A stretch of DNA of 63,574 bases, filler included, from Asterionella formosa (Eukaryota), in the NCBI GenBank assembly GCA_002256025.1. It is 23 parts of 23 records of this genome, joined end to end, with 100 filler letters (N's around TTAATTAATTAA, not from the genome) between each part and the next. Parts side by side here need not be neighbours in the genome. Positions count along the whole stretch, not along the records: positions 11,107 to 13,782 come from NKIB01014970.1; 22 more parts are not named here. The stretch is one strand, 5' to 3'. This document shows positions 1,430 through 52,636 of this stretch, piece after piece. Position 1 is the first letter of the stretch; each line of letters starts with the position of its first letter. A program made the translations under genes and the position numbers. The notes under the pieces were generated by a model. It had not been told where the DNA came from, did no database searches, and was given only the letters and a program-made list of their open reading frames with translations.

Positions 1430-1625
1430 TGAAGTATCTAACTAGAAGTAGTAGTATTTGTTGAATATATGAGCTTATTAATTAATCCTTATGTATAACT
1501 CATTTCCTGAACTGACATCAAAAGTATAGAATGGGTGTTAGTCGAGTTCTCTCATTATTGAATTCCGATATATTTGACATAACCCCAACTCTATATATAT
1601 CTGTATCGATGTGCAGGATTGCTCA
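1430..1625 (-). mobile_element. Ty3/gypsy 3' LTR, copy 1
   Basis: Follows the integrase stop and the purine tract GGGAGAG. It begins TGAG and ends TTCA. The same ~195-bp sequence occurs at 10182, 12159 and 30804. Confidence 0.85.
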
Positions 1626-10124: not shown

Positions 10125-10178
10125 TACTACCGGTAGGTACATGGTATGGTATGGTATGGTATGGTATGGTATGGTACC
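10125..10178. repeat. (TATGG)n / TA-CCGG-TA array
   Basis: TACTACCGGTAGGTAC followed by ATGGT x7 and ACC, directly beside the gypsy LTR end. Confidence 0.85.
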
Positions 10179-10181
10179 GAG

Positions 10182-11006
10182 TGAAGTATCTAACTAGAAG
10201 TAGTAGTATTTGTTGAATATATGAGCTTATTTGTTAATCCTTGTGTGTAACTCGTTCTCCAAGTCGACACCAAAGTATACAATGAGGGTTAGTCGAGTTC
10301 TCTCATTATTGAGTTCTTATACATACATGATATAACACTAACCCTATATACATCTGTATTGATGCGCAAGATCGCTCACTCTCCCACACCAAGGGAAAAC
10401 CTTTTACCTTTGAAAAGGTTTGATGTAATGGATATTAATTCAGTCCGTAGTATGCATAGTTTGTTGAAAAGTAACTGGACCATTGGCATATACTTGAATA
10501 AATAGAATAAGGACCTCGTCCATGGTTATCCAAGGTAGTAGGATTATCCGATAGGATTAAAACCTCATCAACAACCTTGTAATCGCAAGAACGACGACGG
10601 AAAGTATCACGACGTAGTCATTTGTCAATTATCACTTATCGACATTGATATCCCAATATCAATTACATATCTATAATCAAATCATGTTGTAAAACCCATG
10701 TTCCTGGTGAAAATACACAATGTACTATAAATAGTAGCTCGAGCTGCATATGATGCAGCAAACTGGTATCCACAATATTCTGAACTTGAAATTCCTTGAT
10801 TGGAGGATGAGCCTTTAACATGACTTGTACATAGGCTTTTAATGTGTATGAAAGGAATACCAGTAAATTGACCTCCATTGTCATGTATACAACCTTCTGG
10901 ACGGAGATATCCGTCCAACCAATCATTTTTAAATTTCATCGCAATATATTCTGATGTCTTATTATTGATATGTGAAATTTCTGGTAAATTGGTGACTGTG
11001 TTAACT
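10182..11006 (-). mobile_element. Older diverged copy of the same gypsy family: LTR (10182..10378) plus a decayed, internally deleted integrase
   Basis: Clear but diverged similarity to 1430-2350 (KFKNDWL, IHDNGGQF, AASYAARAT), with frameshifts. Confidence 0.92.
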
Positions 11007-11106: not shown

Positions 11107-12132
11107 GATACTTGGCGTATTGCTATTCCTACATCATTATTGGATCCTATTATTAATTGGTATCATCAGATGTTAGCTCATGTGGGTATGACAAGATTAA
11201 ATGCTACAATTGCTACACATTTTTATCACCCTATATTAAAAACAAGAGTGGAACATATTGTAAGAGTATGTGAAGCATGTCAACGTACAAAATTACCTGG
11301 TACTGGTTTTGGTGAACTTCCACCCAGGAATGCATTATTATTACCATGGTCAGAAGTCGCAGTAGATCTAATTGGTCCATGGAAGATAACAGTGGCTGCT
11401 CAAACGATTGAATTTCGTGCTCTAACTTGTATTGACACAGTCACCAATTTAGCAGAAATTTCACGTATCATCAATAAAACATCAGAATATATTGCAATGA
11501 AATTTGAAAATGATTGGTTAGCCAGATATCCCCGTCCAGAACGTTGTATACATGACAATGGAGGTGAATTTACTGGTGCTCCTTTCTTACACATGTTAGT
11601 ATTGAATGGAATCAAAGATGTGACTACCACAGTAAAGAATCCACAAGCAAATGCTATCTGTGAACGTTTCCATCAATCTATCAGCAATAGTCTACGAGTT
11701 ATGTTAAAGGCTCATCCTCCAATCAATGAATTTCAAGCCCAAAATATTGTGGATACATGTTTTGCAGCTGCGTCATATGCAGCTCGAGCTACTATTTATA
11801 GTATATTACGTATTTCACCAGGAGCATGGGTTTTCCAACGTGATATGATATTAAATATTCCTTTGATTACAGATTTACAATTAATACATCAACGTCGACA
11901 GGTGATAATTGACGAACGTTTACGTCGTGCAAATTTCCGTCGTCGATCTTATGATTACAAAGTGGGTGACGAGATTTTAATATTATTGGATAATCCTACT
12001 ACTTTGGATGATCGTGGACGAGGTCCTTATACTATTATTCAAGTACATGCCAATGGTACAGTTACTTTTCAACGCACTATGCATATTACCGAACGAATTA
12101 ATATTCGTCGTATCAAACCTTTTCATAGGTAA
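11107..12132 (+). CDS. Ty3/gypsy integrase (partial), copy 2
   Basis: The protein is identical to the 1652..2644 ORF except for H->Y (ATIHS vs ATIYS). Confidence 0.95.
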   Translation, partial: DTWRIAIPTSLLDPIINWYHQMLAHVGMTRLNATIATHFYHPILKTRVEHIVRVCEACQRTKLPGTGFGELPPRNALLLPWSEVAVDLIGPWKITVAAQTIEFRALTCIDTVTNLAEISRIINKTSEYIAMKFENDWLARYPRPERCIHDNGGEFTGAPFLHMLVLNGIKDVTTTVKNPQANAICERFHQSISNSLRVMLKAHPPINEFQAQNIVDTCFAAASYAARATIYSILRISPGAWVFQRDMILNIPLITDLQLIHQRRQVIIDERLRRANFRRRSYDYKVGDEILILLDNPTTLDDRGRGPYTIIQVHANGTVTFQRTMHITERINIRRIKPFHR

Positions 12133-12158
12133 AAGGTTTTCCCTCAAGTGTGGGAGAG

Positions 12159-12353
12159 TGAGCAATCCTGCACATCGATACAGATATATATAGAGTTGGG
12201 GTTATGTCAAATATATCGGAATTCAATAATGAGAGAACTCGACTAACACCCATTCTATACTTTGATGTCAGTTCAGGAAATGAGTTATACATAAGGATTA
12301 ATTAATAAGCTCATATATTCAACAAATACTACTACTTCTAGTTAGATACTTCA
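12159..12353 (+). mobile_element. Ty3/gypsy 3' LTR, copy 2
   Basis: PPT GGGAGAG at 12152-12158, then TGAG...TTCA, followed by CCAGGTACC. Confidence 0.85.
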
Positions 12354-12498
12354 CCAGGTACCTGATGCCAGGAACATGGTATCAGCCTACCGGCGGTACC
12401 TGGTACCTGGTACCAGGTACCGGTAACTGAATTTGTGTGGAGCGATATACATACCGGTTCTGGTACCTGGTACCAGGTACCAGTACTGGTACCGGTAC
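12354..12498. repeat. TA-CCWGG/CCGG/CCAG/CTGG-TA footprint-like array
   Basis: GGTACCTGGTACCTGGTACCAGGTACCGGTA and GGTACCTGGTACCAGGTACCAGTACTGGTACCGGTACC. Confidence 0.85.
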
Positions 12499-16656: not shown

Positions 16657-18022
16657 GGCCAGTGGCAGTACCTCCTGGAATGGGCGACAATAAAATTGGG
16701 CAATCAATCATGTCAACGCCCACCACATGTATCCCCGTAGGCAAGCATTTGCAAAGAAGGTAGCCGTATGCTGAAAAGTCTCGATGGTATCAAAGGAAAT
16801 CCATACTGTGATGTCATTCCCTGAAAGTACAAGTTCAGGAGAGCCCGTGATTCTGTTTAATACCAACAAGCTGTAGTTTCCACTCTCAGTGAACTCGGAT
16901 ATGGTAAGTAGAGGCATAAAGTTGTCCTCTCCAGCACATCCACCAGGTCCAGCACTGGTAAAAGCACATCCAGGAGAATGACAAGACAAGTTGGCCAATA
17001 TATAAGACCGACCATATGCTGCCAACCCAAGAACAATTTGGTCATTAGGAACATTGCAGTCAAATAAATATTGAAGGATATCATGAATGAATCTCAGGTC
17101 TGTATGTGATCCTATGATTTTAGGATCATCCCAAGAACCATGAATGTCATAGGCCATGATGTTCAAAGAGTCTAATTGCTGAGAAAGAACAGTCAAATTA
17201 AACCCAATCTCCACATTGTATCGACTCACAGGAACTGCCATTGTTATTGTGTATTTTTCAAAAACATTATTGAACTCGTTGCATATAGTCGTGACCAAGA
17301 GGCCATAGTTGGTAAAGTCTGCTGTACTACCACCTCGATCAAAATCTCCAGGGAATTCCCAGTCCAAGTCAATCCCATCAAATTTGTATGTTTGCAAGAA
17401 CTCAATCACTGCCTCCGCAAATTTCTTTCTAGATACAGATGTGGCGGCCACAGTGCTGAAACGAGAGCTTGTGCCCTCGGCAGGGTTGTTGAATGACCAC
17501 CCACCTACAGAAATGATAGTTTTCAAATTAGGATACCGCATCTTGAGACCATTGAATTGGTCATACAAAATGACTTCATTGACATAATCATCTCCGTACG
17601 TAGCAATTTTTCCCGAAACATTCTTGAGCCAGGCAAAACTGTATGACAAATGGGTGAATCCATTTCCACTCACGTCAATATCAGAGGGAGTGACAGTGAC
17701 ACATCACTCCTTACTAGCCGCCCAACTCTGATAGTAGTAGCCGAAATTTACCGTCATGGTATCTTTGGATTTACATGTTGGACCAGTGTTGGCATATGAC
17801 GGAGACTGAGTGGTAGGCGTCGCCTGGGAATTGGTGTAATCTGGGCCCGATTATCGCAGTATTCAGCGGCGTCTCCACAATGGCCAAATGCGGAGCAACA
17901 TTGAGTCTATTGGAACATTGACCATTTCCTGTGATTCCATTTCTGCATGTGAAGTTTTCAGAATCTACTGACTGCACAAGTATGATGATGCTCGCAAGCA
18001 AGATTCTGTTGGAAATCAGCAT
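16657..18022 (-). pseudogene. Secreted GH18 chitinase with an N-terminal hevein/CBM18-like domain, disrupted
   Basis: Signal peptide, Cys-rich C..G..GNG.C...CCSAFGHCG..AEYC, GYY.QSW, THL.YSFA, ISVGGW, FDGIDLDWEFP, MAYD and GYMWWA. Frameshifts near 17900 and 16715, and a TGA near 17705. Confidence 0.88.
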
Positions 18023-30803: not shown

Positions 30804-33180
30804 TGAAGTATCTAACTAGAAGTAGTAGTATTTGTTGAATACCGGGTATATGAGCTTATTAATTAATCCTTATGTATAACTCATTTCCTGAACTGACATC
30901 AAGTACAGAATGGGTGTTACCGGGTAGTCGAATCCTCTCATTATTGAATTCCGATATATTTGACAAAACCCTAACTCTATATATATCTGTATCGATGTGC
31001 AGGATTGCTCACTCTCCCACACTTGGGGGAAAACCTTTTACCTATGAAAAGGTTTGATACGACGAATATTAATTCGTTCGGTAATATGCGTAGTGCGTTG
31101 AAAAGTAACTGTACCATTGGCATGTACTTGAATAATAGTATAAGGACCTCGTCCACGATCATCCAAAGTAGTAGGATTATCCAATAATATTAAAATCTCG
31201 TCACCCACTTTGTAATCATAAGATCGACGACGGAAATTAGCACGACGTAAATGTTCGTCAATTATCACTTGTCGACGTTGATGTATTAATTGTAAATCTG
31301 TAATCAAAGGAATATTTAATATCAAATCACGTTGAAAAACCCATGCTCCTGGTGAAATACGTAATATACTATGAATAGTACTAGCTCGAGCTGCATATGA
31401 CGCAGCTGCAAAACATATATCCACAATATTTTGGGCTTGAAATTCATTGATTGGAGGATGAGCCTTTAACATAACTCGTAGACTATTGCTGATAGATTGA
31501 TGTACCGGTAAACGTTCACAGATAGCATTTGCTTGTGGATTCTTTGCTTACTGTGGTAGTCACATCTTTGATTCCATTCAATACTAACATGTGTAAGAAA
31601 GGAGCACCAGTAAATTCACCTCCATTGTCATGTATACAACGTTCTGGATGGGGATATCTGGCTAACCTATCATTTTCAAATTTCATTGCAATATATTCTG
31701 ATGTTTTATTGGTGATACGTGAAATTTCTGCTAAATTGCTTGGGGACTGTGTCAATACAAGTTAGAGCACGAAATTCAATCGTTTGAGCAGCCACTGTTA
31801 TCTTCCATGGACCAATTAGATCTACTGCGACTTCTGACCATGGTAATAATAATGCATTCCTGGGTGGAAGTTCACCAAAACCAGTACCAGGTAATTTTGT
31901 ACGCTGACATGCTTCACATACTCTTACAATATGTTCCACTCTTGCTTTTAATGTAGGGTGATAAAAATGTGTAGCAATTGTAGCATTTAATCTTGTCATA
32001 CCCACATGAGCTAACATCTGATGATACCAATTAATAATAGGATCCAATAATGATGTAGGAATAGCAATACGCCAAGTATCTCCTGGATTCTTCACAAAAC
32101 ATATTGAAAATATATCATGAAAATTGATAGAAGGAAATTTTAATGGATGTGTTTGTTGATTGAGAATCAATTGTATATCCAGCAATTGTCTATCATGCAT
32201 TAAATGATAATCCAGAGGATATTGAATATTGTCTGTCAAGATGGGATGATTAAGGAAACATGTAAGCAGAGGTTCATCATCTAATTCAATTGAAAAAGTA
32301 GAAGAAGAAAATGATGTTGGAGATTTCGGTCCAATATCAATATCATCCTCCACCAAAGACTCAAGCCTCGGGAGGCGAGAGATGGAATCTGCAATAGCAT
32401 TGTCAGTCCCTTTCACATAGTGAAAAGTAGGATGATATTCTTCAATATAAAGTCTCCATCTTAGAACACGTTGATTATGTAAAGTATTATAAATAAGATT
32501 TCGATGATCAGTGTGAACATGTAGAACTGCGCCCAATAACATAGAGCGAAATTCTTTGAAAGTTTCTACCACAGAAAGTAATTCTTTTTCAATAGTAGTA
32601 TAATTCTTTTGAGCAGCAGATAATTTGCGAGAATAATAAGCAACTGGGAGATCATTTTGAGATCATTTTGCATAATGACCGACCCTAGCTAATTGATAAT
32701 CAGAGGCTGTGTATTAAAAAAAAGGTCATATAGCATGACACTGGCATGAGATGAATAAGTACCAGCTATGGTATGTATTAATTGGGAAGTCTCATCAGAC
32801 AAAGAAATACTTTGAGGCATAACCCGTTCATGTATTAAGGATAATGATCCTCCACTATCGAATAAAACTCGTAGTATTTTATGTATCGGTATATTATCCA
32901 CCAATTTTGGCGCTAAAAGGGACATCGGAATCAAATCAATTGATGCTAATATATCCTTAGAAGTAAAACAGGAAACCGGAATTGGTCCCTGATATGTATG
33001 TGGAACATCATGTCCATCAATACAGTTATATAAATCCCGCGTTACATTAACAGCGGTATCCATAGTGTATTCAACCTGTAAATAAACAATATTATTCAGG
33101 TGATGACTAACGTGAGATATACTCAACGAGTCATTATAACGCTATTATCGCACATACCTCTGTAATGGCGATCAGCAATC
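30804..33180 (-). mobile_element. Gypsy copy 4: protease region, RNase H, integrase, 3' LTR (30804..31011); RT deleted; frameshifted
   Basis: Protease motif VLFDSGG; RNase H motifs EKELLSVVETFKEF, HTDHRNL and NAIADSISRL. Integrase and LTR are about 98% identical to copy 1 by manual comparison. Confidence 0.93.
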
Positions 33181-33280
33181 NNNNNNNNNNNNNNNNNNNN
33201 NNNNNNNNNNNNNNNNNNNNNNNNTTAATTAATTAANNNNNNNNNNNNNNNNNNNNNNNNNNNNNNNNNNNNNNNNNNNN

Positions 33281-34665
33281 ACGATCTCCTGTCCGCAATG
33301 GAGGGCTGTCGTGTCATCGCCGGTACCACGGGTGGTGATCTTCGCGTCTGGTCTGTAAAGGACGTCTACGCAGCGACGGTGGTTGCCAGAAAAGGAAGCG
33401 AAGCTTTGTCAAGTGTCGTAGATGTCATCAATCCACTCAATGAGATGAGAATCTCCCATGTACAAGACAGTTCGACATCAAGCTACATCTCACAAACAAA
33501 TCGGGGTATTACAGAAATTGCTGCAGGTAGCGCCTTCAGTCGACTAAAGTTTTCGCTTCGTGGCCGCGCATTGTCTGGTCACCGTGGCGGTGTCACTTGC
33601 ATTGATGTCCCGTCTCATATATACCGACCCGACGCCCTCGTTACCGGGGGAGCCGATGGTTTCATCAAATTATGGTCTCTTCGAACCCCAACAGGAAGGA
33701 GGACAAGCGGCGAGTTGCTTTCGGGAGGATCTAGTACTCCTTTATTCAATACTTCTGGTCTGGCTGGTGGTGCAACTGGGAGTAGTTCCGATCCAATGGG
33801 TAGCAACGGAAGGAAGGGCGGCAGAGGGGGGGATGCTCTCAGCATTCTCTCTGGTCACACTGGACGAGTGCTTTGTGTGAAGACAGCTTGGCATGGCGAT
33901 CGTCTTCTCAGTGGTGGAGCAGATCGCACCGTTCGTATTTGGGACCTTGCTGGTCCTGGCGGAGGGGGTAAATGTCTACATGCACTTACTGGTCACCTTG
34001 GTTGGGTTACCCATACCCACTATTGGGGACCCAACACTATTGTGTCAGCATCGACTGACCGCGCTATAGCATTGTGGGATGCCCGCGTTAGGATATCCCC
34101 TCTCTTTGTTCTTCGATACCATCAGTCGCCCATCTCTGATCTCCTTGTTGGCTCAAGAACTGATCCATTGATGGTTAGTGCGGCGGCTGACGGGACCGTC
34201 GCTACGTGGGACTTCCGAATGCTATCTGGTGGTGATACTGAAAACGGAAGCTCATCTGGTTTAAAACCTGAAAAAATGTCCGTCAAGAAAGATTCGAAAC
34301 TTGAGGAGAAGCATTGCAAATCGATTCGTGATCCTCCTGCTACCATGTTGCATGCATCCCGCGGCAGTTCAAGCAAGCAAGCGGGCGCCGTCCTCTTGTC
34401 AAGGGGTGCGGGCAAGGTTCGAAGGACAGTTATTACTGTCGGCAGCGACGCAGTTGCTAGAGAGTGGGATATTTCGACTGGTCAAAGTATTCGCGAAGAA
34501 AGCACGGGTCATTGTGATGTTGTTTCTAGTCTGCTCACCTTTTCGGATGGAACAATGGGTGCATCTTCTGGAGTGGAGCCTAGCGATGTTAATTTAAACT
34601 TTGGTGGAACCATATCGAGTTCCTGGGATGGAACAATCCGGATGAAGAAACTAGTGCGACGTTGA
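33281..34665 (+). CDS. WD40-repeat protein, C-terminal part
   Basis: Multiple GH...WD/WS repeats (GHRGGVTC..IKLWS, GHTGRVLC..VRIWD, GHLGWVT..IALWD) in a 455-codon open frame. Confidence 0.93.
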
Positions 34666-34925
34666 AGAGAACCTAGTTATCTGATGAATGTTAAAAACTG
34701 TTGATTCCAATTTACGTCATTCAACCACTGCGAAGGATGTCGCCGACTAAATCATTTAATTGAGTGTAACATACCAGAGTGGCCTAAAATATTCCACTCC
34801 TATAGTTTAAGAATGAAGCGACATACATGCCAGTTCTGAAATTTTATGTGAGATGGGATTATTCTAGCTTACAGATATAACATTGATTCCCAATTGTTGG
34901 TAGTAATTAATGATGTGATGGTTTG

Positions 34926-35096
34926 TGTTGAGAGGGAGAAACGCTTGCAACGGGTGCCAGCGGCAGCTACATTAACAAGGAACTGAGATTCTAAAGTAGT
35001 ATTTAACTAGCTGTAGAGGGACCAGTACTCACGGGAATTAAGCACTTACAGGAATCTTGGTAGGATATACGGAGTAACCGGTATATGGTACCAACA
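34926..35096 (-). mobile_element. Ty1/copia 3' LTR, 171 bp
   Basis: PPT GAGGGGG, then TGTTG...CAACA inverted termini. Confidence 0.8.
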
Positions 35097-35102
35097 CCCC
35101 CC

Positions 35103-35948
35103 TCAAGTGAGAAAATTCCCATGAGACGGGACAATAATATTGCGGAGGCGGAGAAAATGGGCATCATCTTTATGTTCTTTGGTGAACAGATCAGCAACAT
35201 TGGTATCCCCTGGGAGGTGGGTGACAAAGATTTCGGAAAAACAGTGAGCGTTGCGCACAGCCATGTTGCGGATATTAATATGCCGCATCTTTTTGTTAGC
35301 ACAGTTGTGGGACCAGTCCACAGCACCTCGGTTGTCATTCCAAAGAGGGGTGGGGAGAGTGACATCAGGCATGTGGAGGTCACTAAGGATATGGCGGGTG
35401 AATTGGATAACCTTGGTGCCCTCATCTGCAGATTTGATTTCAGATTCGCAGGTACTGCGGCTCACACGAGGTTCACGAATGACATGCCAGGCAATGGGGT
35501 CACCTGTACGTGTACTGATGGAACCAAGAAGGGAGCAACACTCGGCAAGAGAGATGATGTCGGTGGGGTTGGGTTTGGAAGCATCTTGGGGGCCCCAGTT
35601 GGCATCGGTGTAAGTGGTGAGAGTGGGAGTGTCCTTGGGCCAGCCAAAGGTGGTGGAGAGGTATGAGGAAGCAAATTGCGAGGTAAAGGCAATGCCATGA
35701 TCGGCAGAGCCAGCCAGGTATCGTAACACATACTTGGCACCTAAAAGGTGAGCAGGGGTGGCATAGGAGTTGTGCTGAGCCAGGAGAGTGAGGGCCACAG
35801 AGACATCAGGACGTGTGCTGACAGCCAGCCAATTGAGAGCCCCAATGAGTGACTGGTATTGTGTAATAATGGCCGCGCGAGCTTTGGGGGAAAGTTCAGC
35901 ACCATCAGGCACAATGCGGTCATAGACCAGGCCAGAGCGATAAGGGGT
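35103..35948 (-). CDS. Ty1/copia RT C-terminus/RNase H (open frame, partial)
   Basis: YQSLIGALNW..TRPD, YTDANW, STCESE, DNRGA and NVADLFTKE. Confidence 0.93.
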   Translation of the reverse strand, partial: TPYRSGLVYDRIVPDGAELSPKARAAIITQYQSLIGALNWLAVSTRPDVSVALTLLAQHNSYATPAHLLGAKYVLRYLAGSADHGIAFTSQFASSYLSTTFGWPKDTPTLTTYTDANWGPQDASKPNPTDIISLAECCSLLGSISTRTGDPIAWHVIREPRVSRSTCESEIKSADEGTKVIQFTRHILSDLHMPDVTLPTPLWNDNRGAVDWSHNCANKKMRHINIRNMAVRNAHCFSEIFVTHLPGDTNVADLFTKEHKDDAHFLRLRNIIVPSHGNFLT

Positions 35949-37240
35949 NNNNNNNNNNNNNNNNNNNNNNNNNNNNNNNNNNNNNNNNNNNNTTAATTAA
36001 TTAANNNNNNNNNNNNNNNNNNNNNNNNNNNNNNNNNNNNNNNNNNNNTCGATGTTCCATACATGCCATCAAGACTAGTCTTGTTCTTATGTTTGCGATC
36101 GTCTTATCAGCTAAAGCAGATGTTGTTGATCAGTTGGCTGGTTGACAGCGGTTGAGTCTCCTCATGAAATGACAGGAATGTCAATATGTATACCCGGTAA
36201 ACTGTACGTGCCGGTAGCTAATGGACAACAGAAATCATCCAGATTCTTCCTCCTTCTTGCTTGGGCTGACACCTGAAAATGGTGCCGCGTCTCAAATTTT
36301 GTCATCATACCGGTAGTAGGAGTGTGGTACGGTACTTACTAACTATGTAGGGACGAGCATCATTTACATAATGTATTTTATATTATTATTAATTAAGAAC
36401 GTACCGGTAAATAGCACCGGTGCGGTACTCCGAGTACCGTAGGACCGGTAAGTATGTTGAAGCAATGCTAACAAACACAAACTGGTCACCTGCTATACCA
36501 CCTGATTACCATGTACCATATTGTGTACTTACAGACAAGCAATCCTTTGCCACATGCCTCCTCGTTGTTCTACCTGGGCACGTTTGCACGAATGGGAGAC
36601 CTGGCTGTTGATTGGCATTGTCGATCAACACACAAGGACACCTAACAATCCAGCGGACTGCTTAAACCTGGTACCAGGTATGGTTCCAGTACTCTATTGT
36701 ACATCGATACGCGATACCAGGGAACTCCTTCTGTGGTACCAGGTACAATAAAATAACACTTGCATCGATGATTCAAACTTCTCCGTGGCCATTTTCACTC
36801 TTGCGACTTTTTCCGGCTAAATTGCCCTATTGTGTGGCTTGCTATAAGCTATTGACGCATGAATATATTAAATACTATATACAAGCAAAAAAAAAAATTG
36901 GCAACTACATCTCAAATTTTTTTAGAGCTTTTTCGATTTCACCCTACATATGGCTTCTACGGGTATCTCGAACAAAACGCAGATCATGACCCATTTTTCT
37001 TCGAATCACAAACTAGTGTACCGGTATTCTCAACAAGTAGGATATAACGTCATCAATTCTATCACGACTTGATAATGACGTAGGTATGCTAATTATTTCG
37101 CATAAAAAATGTTGATGTTTAATTTAATTAATGATATGTTTTACCAGCACATAAGTAATATTGTCCCTCAACATAACATCACACATCAGTATCATACACC
37201 GGTACAGGTAGCATGAGTCGCACGTACTCAACGGTACTCA

Positions 37241-37335
37241 CCAGCAAGTTGCGGTCATTTTGCTTCACTAACATTTTAATCTGCGATAAAAATAGCTAAA
37301 TCTTTAGTTTCAGCAAAATTACCGCAACTTGCAGG
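37241..37335. mobile_element. 95-bp MITE-like hairpin
   Basis: CCAGCAAGTTGCGGTCATTTTGCT ... AGCAAAATTACCGCAACTTGCAGG|TA: 24-bp arms with 2 mismatches. The left flank is CA rather than TA. Confidence 0.7.
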
Positions 37336-51016: not shown

Positions 51017-52129
51017 TCAACTGAAGTTAATATTTTCCTTGGTCCATTCATAGACGACAAACATGGTGCCTACCATTGGAATCACCTTTAATAACTCTGG
51101 CGTCAGACCTCGATACATGCTCAGAAACCCCTCCCTTTCTAACATGGCAACTGCCTGTTGCCTCGCTGTAAGACGCTCGCCTTCAGGAATGTGAAGATTC
51201 TGTATCTGCATTCGACGGCGAATAGTATCGGCGGGAAAAGTTATCAGTGTAGAAAAGGCTCCACTGCAGGCTCCACAATACAGCGTCAACATCAAGCCCA
51301 GCTTCGTTTCTCCAGACTCGGCATCCACTCGGCGCATATTATAGAAAAGTTCGTCGTCCAAAACGTGTTCTTTCAAGGTCCCATACACAGTGTAGGAAAT
51401 AGCAAAATTTGGGACGGCAACTAGTAGTGTCGGTCCAATTCCAGAATAAAAACCAGTCAGCCCTTCCGTTTTTGCAATTTTTCTAAATGCATCTCTGATT
51501 CCTCGGTAATGCTCCTTTCCTTCTAGCTGCGTAGTTAGACGCGTTCGAACCAAATCGAGGGGATAGCATGCAATGCATGCCGAACTTCCAGCAACGGCAC
51601 CAGCCAGAAATTTGGTGCCCACCGTAGTATTGTTGTTGCTGTTGCTGTCTGGCTTGTTGCTTCTTGTGACATTTCTAGTGACTCGACGCGCCAGTTGCGA
51701 GCTAGTTTCATTGCGCTCCTCTTCCTTCGCTTCATGATTGGCTCTAAGTATGTGGAGCATATTCTCGTACACGAAAAAGTTAATCGCCGAGTACGGAAAG
51801 CGATGCAACACAGAAGTTCCGTTTCCTTTCCACAAGGACATGATTCCTCCACGTTCCACAATTTTCCGGAAGCCTCCAACAAACGACATGGCGAACCTGG
51901 GGCGGTTTGGAGTAGTTGTTACCATGGAATGAACTTGGAACAAAATGGTTAATCTGGAAAATGGTGCTGTCAATGTTTTGGCAGCGGATCCAGCGATTCC
52001 ACCACATAAGAGTTGCTTCACTGCTTCTGATGTCCTAGAATCGTTCATCGGCGATGCAGGCTTTTCCTTGTGTCTACCACTTTCCTTCGTTAGTGTGCTA
52101 GTCACTTCAGCGTTTGTGTTGTTACTCAT
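51017..52129 (-). CDS. Mitochondrial carrier family (SLC25) protein
   Basis: Three carrier repeats with Px[D/E]xx[K/R] signatures (PFSRLTI, PLDLVRTR, PADTIRRR) and [W/Y][K/R]G motifs. Complete and intronless. Confidence 0.95.
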   Translation of the reverse strand: MSNNTNAEVTSTLTKESGRHKEKPASPMNDSRTSEAVKQLLCGGIAGSAAKTLTAPFSRLTILFQVHSMVTTTPNRPRFAMSFVGGFRKIVERGGIMSLWKGNGTSVLHRFPYSAINFFVYENMLHILRANHEAKEEERNETSSQLARRVTRNVTRSNKPDSNSNNNTTVGTKFLAGAVAGSSACIACYPLDLVRTRLTTQLEGKEHYRGIRDAFRKIAKTEGLTGFYSGIGPTLLVAVPNFAISYTVYGTLKEHVLDDELFYNMRRVDAESGETKLGLMLTLYCGACSGAFSTLITFPADTIRRRMQIQNLHIPEGERLTARQQAVAMLEREGFLSMYRGLTPELLKVIPMVGTMFVVYEWTKENINFS

Positions 52130-52636
52130 TCTTTCTTAGTGGTTGAATCGGGGTTTTGCAGTAAGAAAATTTGCGTCGCTTCCTCCTCTCGCTTCCCTTC
52201 TCGATTCCCAATCAATCAATAACAGGTTGCCACCTTCGTCAACAAGCTCGATAAGAAAGATTACAGCACTACACAATGCACTACACAATTTGTTATTGGC
52301 GAACGGTCTGGTTCTTGCAGTTTGTTGCTCAAGTTGCCTTGTGACGATCTGATGAGAATGGAGCCAATGGAAGTACTGGTAAACTTCCTCATGGTCTGGA
52401 ATCTATATTAGGAGGTTGGGGTGCAACTCTTGTAGCTACTTTGCACATGATGCTAGTACCAGGGCATCTGGAACGGTTGGCAGGCAGTGTGGGGGGAGGG
52501 AAGTGCAAATACTTAATTGATAATGCATTAATAGCCNNNNNNNNNNNNNNNNNNNNNNNNNNNNNNNNNNNNNNNNNNNNTTAATTAATTAANNNNNNNN
52601 NNNNNNNNNNNNNNNNNNNNNNNNNNNNNNNNNNNN

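What the first reader, a model, noticed from the sequence alone, without database searches (positions are those of the whole stretch)
12340..12365. Gypsy retrotransposon appears sequence-targeted to the CCWGG-TACC scar motif
Seen: the four independent 3' LTR ends (element strand) are followed by CCAGGTACCAT (1429 downward), CCAGGTACCTG (12354), CCAGGTACCAT (30803 downward) and CTCGGTACCAT (10181 downward). The flanks are unrelated beyond that point, and three of the four lie in scar arrays. Inference: the integrase prefers a palindromic GGTA-CCWGG-TACC site with a 5-bp TSD. That would be a retroelement exploiting DNA-transposon footprints as a safe harbour, linking two TE classes.
Basis: partly seen in the sequence, partly recalled or inferred. 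Interest (0 to 1): 0.8.

Follow-up and report, generated by a model that had tools for sequence, protein, structure and literature searches.

The report
Gypsy retrotransposon landing on transposon scars
In a diatom, a recently active Gypsy-type jumping gene inserts about two times in three at one short palindromic DNA word, which is common in this genome apparently because a different, cut-and-paste type of element leaves it behind as a scar; whether this is an evolved safe-landing strategy is not shown.

Summary
Confirmed, genome-wide. The four window LTR ends are real but lie on four unlinked short contigs. In the genome, 199 of 326 non-5' LTR ends are followed by CCWGGTA (about 950 times background) and 180 LTR starts are preceded by GTACCWGG; 213 5' LTRs continue into the internal leader instead, so the motif is flank, not LTR. 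In 111 sampled junctions the consensus is GGTA-CCWGG-TACC (77 exact cores), in exact register. The 5-bp duplication is shown by 5 of 6 same-contig pairs, by rare TSD words matched at both ends, and by an empty copy of the 12354 site with one CCAGG. A copia control gives 2 of 29. The word is about 100-fold over-represented, behaves as an insertion at TA, matches the tips of a resident TA-flanked miniature element and avoids long ORFs. Best reading: intrinsic integrase preference, made near site-specific by scar abundance. Off-consensus sites show it reads sequence, not scars as such; adaptation to a safe harbour is untested. This scan noted such targeting before on other DNA of this genome (e1-7617215, e1-7563312).

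The parts
12159..12353 (+). 3' LTR (195 bp, TG...CA) of the young Gypsy subfamily
   Evidence: 40 of 40 scored genome candidates 100% identical, out of 929 candidates
12146..12158 (+). polypurine tract
   Evidence: sequence; shared by all 3' LTRs
11107..12132 (+). integrase frame (HHCC zinc domain, D87/D150/E186, GPY motif; no chromodomain hit), cut 5' by a contig end
   Evidence: Pfam Integrase_H2C2 E 2e-10; invariant columns
12354..12358 (+). right copy of the 5-bp target-site duplication, CCAGG
   Evidence: empty homologous site in L252-L254 holds one CCAGG; matching 5' junction in L038
12359..12500 (+). right target flank TACC and the surrounding array of TA-CCWGG / TA-CCGG units, inside a multi-copy repeat
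1430..1625 (-). 3' LTR of a second young copy; flank CCAGG-TACC at 1429 downward in a scar array; integrase frame 1652-2677
10182..10378 (-). 3' LTR of the older B subfamily (169 identical bases); flank CTCGG-TACC
   Evidence: five unoccupied homologous copies read GGTA-CCTGG-TACC at this place
30804..31011 (-). 3' LTR of an intermediate copy; flank CCAGG-TACC; carries two later TA-to-TA-CCGGG-TA insertions (30840-30848, 30918-30926)
31503..31510 (.). TA-to-TA-CCGG-TA insertion in the integrase region of the same copy
31706..32662 (-). RNase H followed by integrase zinc domain: Gypsy order RT-RH-IN
   Evidence: Pfam RT_RNaseH E 5e-20, Integrase_H2C2 E 3e-11
37241..37335 (+). 95-bp miniature inverted-repeat element with CCA...AGG tips, candidate source of the scars
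   Evidence: 328 exact TA-bounded ends in the genome
34920..35093 (-). copia LTR used as control (not part of the finding; lower bound approximate)

Best explanation
A multi-subfamily, recently active diatom Ty3/Gypsy family integrates with a 5-bp stagger into a palindromic site, consensus GGTA-[CCWGG]-TACC. Shown: target, TSD length, exact register, family specificity. Inferred: the two-fold symmetric intasome itself reads four bases on each side of the cut plus the C/G pairs of the duplicated core, about 2- to 6-fold per base. Separately, a TA-targeting cut-and-paste element with CC(A/T)G tips has littered non-coding DNA with TA-CCWGG-TA footprints that chain into arrays (footprint origin inferred; insertion at TA shown for related units). 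A footprint with neighbours is a perfect integrase site, so a moderately degenerate preference becomes near site-specific: about two thirds of insertions split a scar. Because 7-bp scars rarely persist in reading frames, the element is steered out of coding DNA as a by-product, whether or not this was selected.
For: 199 of 326 3'/solo ends and 180 starts carry the motif. 77 of 111 half-sites have a CCWGG core, 96 of 111 have TA next to it. Register: 49 of 70 at offset 0, 18 at +7, 0-3 at offsets 1-6. TSD: 5 of 6 same-contig pairs match; 6 rare 5-mers recur at both ends; empty site with one CCAGG, left flank 100/100 and right flank 1343/1348 identical. Likelihood model: core adds to flanks (LRT 71 genome background, 48 local), flanks add to core (297, 134), outer GG/CC adds beyond the bare scar (67, 42). 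68% of predicted target weight falls on TACCWGGTA, 0.8% in a simulated scar-free genome. Copia control 2 of 29 although its flanks are scar-rich. The equally common 6-nt TACCGGTA scar is touched by 1 of 111 half-sites. Motif 17,928 vs 166 reversed control; 5 of 170 scars in ORFs of 250 aa or more that cover 27.7% of DNA.
Against: Gypsy flanks are also regionally scar-rich (0.7-2.9 per kb vs 0.42), so a regional step exists and inflates the per-base weights. Among local GGTA-N5-TACC sites 74 of 92 are CCWGG, the same share as 60 of 77 junctions with TACC, so core reading is partly confounded with flank reading. 34 of 111 half-sites lack an exact core and 9 differ at 3 or more bases; pair L062 has no matching TSD. 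Only 1 of the 7 clean scar insertions seen inside old copies is CCWGG; the rest are CCGG or CCSGG. No transposase identified; no biochemistry. Insertions are survivors, not de novo events.
Confidence: 0.75

Rival explanations
1. Tethered targeting: a host protein, or the scar-making transposase, binds the scar arrays and positions the intasome, as TFIIIB does for Ty3; the integrase itself is only weakly selective.
For: Flanks are scar-dense over hundreds of bases; the scar resembles the tips of the miniature element; Ty3, the best structural relative (7q5b, E 2e-96), is tethered and makes a 5-bp TSD (bioRxiv 2021.07.27.453949, passages).
Against: Symmetric consensus centred exactly on the cut; non-scar cores flanked by GTA/TAC are used; CCGG scars are not used; no chromodomain hit.
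Confidence: 0.15
2. Flank-only reading: integrase reads only GGTA...TACC outside the duplication (as described for rice Tos17) within open, scar-rich regions; the CCWGG core follows from what such sites usually contain here.
For: 45% of background GTA-N5-TAC and 126 of 174 GGTA-N5-TACC sites are CCWGG; locally 74 of 92.
Against: Core terms improve the fit under both backgrounds (p 3e-15, 2e-10); only 2 of 21 non-CCWGG cores with TAC differ at 3 or more bases, against 178 of 278 in background and 30 of 66 locally.
Confidence: 0.2
3. Adaptive safe harbour: the preference evolved in this lineage because scars mark DNA that has already tolerated insertions.
For: The 13-bp consensus equals a scar with neighbours; scars avoid long ORFs; 2 of 3 window flanks searched are themselves multi-copy repeats; the preference is kept across subfamilies (27 of 41, 28 of 36, 5 of 11).
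Against: No junction from a relative in a scar-free host could be read; palindromic target motifs are general in LTR elements (PMC3276498, passages); earlier unchecked notes place the scars upstream of genes, which need not be safe for a 4-5 kb insert.
Confidence: 0.3
4. Artefact or survival bias: the motif is part of the LTR, arose later at LTR ends, reflects collapsed assembly, or insertions were random and survived only in scar-rich DNA.
For: Fragmented assembly with some duplicate contigs (74 to 71 and 45 to 41 rows on de-duplication); regional enrichment.
Against: 5' LTRs lack the motif downstream; no TA lies between LTR and CCWGG, so it is not a later scar; 100%-identical LTRs have distinct flanks; selection cannot give base-exact register; copia does not show it; empty site found; a junction from another sample shows the same site (L183).
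Confidence: 0.02

Closest known systems
Drosophila errantiviruses and two-ORF derivatives (gypsy, ZAM, Idefix groups)
   Same: Ty3/Gypsy elements with sequence-specific, palindromic targets; PMC5408687 (abstract and passages) calls this their exclusive property among LTR elements; motifs extend beyond the TSD (PMC3276498, passages).
   Different: 4-bp TSDs TATA, CGCG or ATAT; insect lineage. Here 5-bp CCWGG in a 13-bp GC-rich palindrome, in a diatom, and the site coincides with another element's scar.
Rice Tos17 (Ty1/copia)
   Same: Palindromic consensus ANGTT-TSD-AACNT around a 5-bp TSD (as cited in PMC6911290, passages): flank reading around a 5-bp cut.
   Different: Copia; no fixed core in the cited consensus; not described as tied to transposon footprints.
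Yeast Ty3
   Same: Best solved relative of the family profile (7q5b); 5-bp TSD.
   Different: Position set by tethering to TFIIIB at Pol III genes, not by a recurring DNA word.
GyDi (Gypsy from diatoms) and unnamed diatom Gypsy proteins
   Same: Order RT-RH-IN; integrase 52% identical to proteins labelled Nitzschia inconspicua and Amphora coffeaeformis.
   Different: No target preference in the passages of PMC2806351 that I read; its supplement with TSDs could not be read; not placed on a tree with GyDi1/2.
Tc1/mariner excision footprints (Sleeping Beauty TACAGTA/TACTGTA)
   Same: TA duplicated around a few terminal bases, two variants of the central base (PMC6943129, passages).
   Different: Five bases (CCWGG), also CCGG and CCSGG, instead of three; transposase not identified here.

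Membership tests
Ty3/Gypsy LTR retrotransposon | pol order RT-RNase H-integrase | tested here: met
   RVT_1 (E 6e-6, below the curated cut-off) in L061 upstream; RT_RNaseH then Integrase_H2C2 in one window frame; homologues share the order
Ty3/Gypsy LTR retrotransposon | TG...CA LTRs, polypurine tract, fixed TSD | tested here: met
   L063 is 4476 bp with 189 identical LTR bases and CCAGG on both sides
Ty3/Gypsy LTR retrotransposon | DDE integrase with HHCC domain | tested here: met
   H20, H25, C55, C58, D87, D150, E186 invariant in 16 sequences
Ty3/Gypsy LTR retrotransposon | primer-binding site complementary to a tRNA 3' end, or self-priming site | tested here: inconclusive
   leader does not start with TGG; an 8-nt match to LTR 61-68 has a mismatch in the B subfamily; no tRNA set was searched
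Chromovirus | chromodomain after integrase | tested here: not met
   no chromo hit at E 0.01 and the frame ends 26 bases before the LTR; a vestigial domain as in Ty3 is not excluded
Errantivirus | 4-bp TATA/CGCG/ATAT target; env gene or descent from env-bearing elements | tested here: not met
   5-bp CCWGG TSD; no room for an env frame between integrase and LTR
GyDi clade | RT clusters with GyDi1/GyDi2 | not tested
   no GyDi sequence at hand; only diatom-labelled homologues
Tc1/mariner footprint (the target word) | arises as an insertion with TA duplicated | tested here: met
   7 of 26 insertions of 4 or more bases in older copies are TA-CC(N0-1)GG-TA, 1 of them CCAGG
Tc1/mariner footprint (the target word) | inserted bases match the tips of a resident TA-flanked element | tested here: met
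   328 ends TA-CCNG-CAAGTTGCGGTCA, 97 of the first 100 with A/T; 8 of 10 rows with both ends have TA after the right tip
Tc1/mariner footprint (the target word) | DD(D/E) transposase of the Tc1/mariner type with these ends; observed excision | not tested
   no transposase search was run; excision cannot be observed with these tools

The most novel reading that the evidence does not exclude
A Gypsy integrase has evolved to recognise the excision footprint of a DNA transposon: a target that another element manufactures and renews, that marks DNA already proven tolerant of frameshifting insertion, and whose arrays offer fresh sites every 7 bp. One TE class would thus write the landing map of another.
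Probability: 0.3. Interest if true: 0.85.

Novelty: new variant of a known kind. Interest (0 to 1): 0.64.

Why it matters
Strong sequence-directed integration is rare among LTR elements and a review ties it to insect errantiviruses (PMC5408687). This family shows a 13-bp, GC-rich consensus with hundreds of natural sites, a good system for asking how an intasome reads target DNA. It also shows, whether adaptive or not, that the footprints of one transposon class determine where another class lands, and hence where 4-5 kb inserts accumulate in this genome. The adaptive question is testable by comparing relatives in diatoms with and without the scars.

Tried and rejected
Relatives from other hosts: the metagenome scan gave 8 loci; the close ones are the same family, mostly collapsed LTR-leader contigs, and only L183 has a host junction (CCTGG-TGCC). 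Viral collection: nothing with P0053, one distant locus with the profile; genome collection: 14 loci; of 12 distant loci inspected none gave a definable junction. A Pfam search for other Gypsy families returned mostly this family among its 30 loci. Laying contigs of 4 public runs showed the family and the leader as a loose end at 12354 but no usable empty allele. The 1430 flank has no empty copy in the assembly. Self-priming: best LTR-leader match is 8 nt and not kept in the older subfamily. No tRNA gene in the window; the inverted-repeat scan was dominated by spacers. Literature searches for an LTR element targeting excision footprints or for diatom LTR target motifs listed nothing of the kind; the library lacks most subscription papers, and the supplement of PMC2806351 could not be read. 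Rows dropped: duplicates (3 and 4) and one degenerate 5' leader among 3' rows; in the copia 3' count L121 (variant end) and the duplicate L149.

Full report
Observation. The four junctions are as described. The window is a concatenation of 23 contigs of about 2.7 kb, so the copies are unlinked and truncated at contig ends. The LTR is 195 bp (12159-12353, TG...CA) behind a polypurine tract and an integrase frame with HHCC, D-D-E and GPY residues; RNase H precedes integrase, which is the Gypsy order. Named homologues are diatom proteins at 52% identity; the best solved relative is the Ty3 intasome.

Genome-wide counts. A 19-base LTR end occurs 539 times in the 68.4 Mb assembly. 213 continue into the internal leader and are 5' LTRs. 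Of the other 326, 199 (61%) are followed by CCWGGTA, whose background rate is 0.00064 per strand position (399 kb in 40 stretches). 180 LTR starts are preceded by GTACCWGG (no matching denominator was counted). The family is young: 40 of 40 scored candidates, of 929, are 100% identical, beside subfamilies at 93-96%, 82-86% and under 82%.

Target logo. From loci L001-L120 (the 30 best DNA hits plus places from the first 100 of 539 pattern hits; chosen by contig order, not by flank) I took 74 3' and 45 5' junctions, 71 and 41 after de-duplication, 111 half-sites after dropping one degenerate leader. Read outward, the consensus is CCWGG-TACC with 85-101 of 111 at each fixed position; 77 have an exact core, 96 have TA beside it. 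CCWGG starts at offset 0 in 49 of 70 3' flanks, at +7 in 18, and at offsets 1-6 in 0-2: base-exact register. All subfamilies show it (27 of 41, 4 of 6, 28 of 36, 5 of 11; 13 of 17 unclassed).

TSD. Solo LTRs L035, L057, L088, L118 and the full copy L063 have the same CCWGG on both sides; L062 does not. Six uncommon 5-mers (GACCT, CATGC, CATAC, GGTGG, CCCTG, CCAGT) occur at both a 5' and a 3' junction, most simply two ends of one insertion. For the finding's own junction, L252-L254 hold the unoccupied site, an array with a single CCAGG at the junction; L038 holds the matching 5' junction (100 of 100 bases identical to the empty left flank; right flank 1343 of 1348). The flank is multi-copy, so the empty copy may be an allele or a paralogue. 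At the off-consensus 10181 junction five unoccupied copies read GGTA-CCTGG-TACC, so it probably was a consensus site. In L065 two elements sit 7 bp apart in neighbouring array units.

Controls. A copia family from the same window has CCWGG at 1 of 15 5' and 1 of 14 3' junctions (3' side counted by eye; probably one insertion; Fisher p 6e-10), although its flanks are at least as scar-rich (2.98 per kb vs 0.42). TACCGGTA is as common as TACCWGGTA (362 vs 340) but only 1 of 111 half-sites overlaps it, as expected if TA-N5-TA geometry matters.

What the target is. GTACCNGGTAC occurs at 17,928 sites against 166 for the reversed control. Of 26 insertions of 4 or more bases in older copies relative to the young one, 7 are TA-to-TA-CC(N0-1)GG-TA, three of them in the window's 30804 copy; only one is CCAGG. 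A miniature element of about 95 bp has TA-bounded CC(A/T)G tips (328 exact ends; window 37241-37335). This parallels Sleeping Beauty's TACAGTA/TACTGTA footprints (PMC6943129, passages), so a Tc1/mariner-type footprint is the likely origin (inference; transposase not sought). 5 of 170 TACCWGGTA lie in stop-free frames of 250 aa or more, which cover 27.7% of the background (20 of 170 vs 34.9% at 150 aa).

How it works. A symmetric per-base model fitted to the half-sites needs both the four flanking bases and the core, with weights of about 2- to 6-fold per base and none for the central base. The outer GG/CC adds beyond the bare scar, and non-scar cores between GTA and TAC are used, so the integrase reads sequence rather than scars as such. 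With these weights 68% of target weight falls on TACCWGGTA in this genome but 0.8% in a simulated scar-free one: the scars turn a degenerate preference into near site-specificity. Against: flanks are regionally scar-rich, which lowers the weights under a local background and leaves core and flank reading partly confounded (74 of 92 local GGTA-N5-TACC sites are CCWGG vs 60 of 77 junctions); tethering is not excluded; all sites are survivors.

Comparison. Palindromic target motifs extending past the TSD are general in Drosophila LTR families (PMC3276498, passages) and weak in plants (PMC6911290, passages, which cites Tos17's ANGTT-TSD-AACNT). Strong specificity is described for errantiviruses (PMC5408687, passages). 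Ty3 is tethered (bioRxiv 2021.07.27.453949, passages). For diatom Gypsy elements I read passages of PMC2806351 without a target motif; its supplement was unavailable. Searches listed no LTR element whose target is another element's excision footprint. Unchecked earlier notes of this scan report the scars (e1-7564111, e1-7576080) and Gypsy targeting (e1-7617215, e1-7563312) on other DNA of this genome; I saw them after my own counts, did not test whether they concern the same family, and do not count them as support.

Verdict. Sequence-directed integration with a 5-bp TSD: about 0.95. Direct readout of flank and core by integrase, amplified by scar abundance: 0.75. Footprint origin of the word: about 0.8. 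Evolved safe-harbour use: 0.3, untested. A new variant of a known kind; interest 0.64.

Noticed in passing
L230-L245; window 37241-37335: The miniature element's tips are asymmetric: in 9 of 10 rows with both ends the third base repeats directly (CCA...AGG or CCT...TGG). Joining two 3-base overhangs through that one base would give CCAGG or CCTGG by orientation; alternatively the element inserts into the centre of CCWGG with a 1-bp duplication.
   Followed up: partly
L005 and all 5' LTRs: No TGG-type primer site: the leader starts with a 12-base palindrome inside a predicted U5-leader stem. Priming mechanism unexplained.
   Followed up: partly
L065 (G000 C1361), L064, L066, L073: Clustered insertions of different subfamilies: two elements 7 bp apart in one array, and others within 140-370 bp of each other.
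   Followed up: partly
window 34920-35996: Copia 3' end and LTR of a family with about 82 candidates; 5-bp TSDs of mixed sequence, flanks scar-rich; the base after its LTR leader starts GGTTAC, not TGG.
   Followed up: partly
whole window: 23 contigs of about 2.7 kb joined by 100-base spacers with TTAATTAATTAA; adjacency in the window means nothing.
   Followed up: yes
window 10137-10176: (TACCA)n microsatellite beside the 10182 LTR, longer than in five unoccupied copies.
   Followed up: no
L181-L186: The same Gypsy family occurs in public metagenome contigs, two labelled marine, at 86-97% protein identity, while runs holding the host flank are labelled freshwater or algal.
   Followed up: no
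window 16708-17703, 51017-52135, 33229-34665: Host genes: GH18 chitinase-like and mitochondrial carrier; a WD40-like frame recognised by eye only.
   Followed up: no
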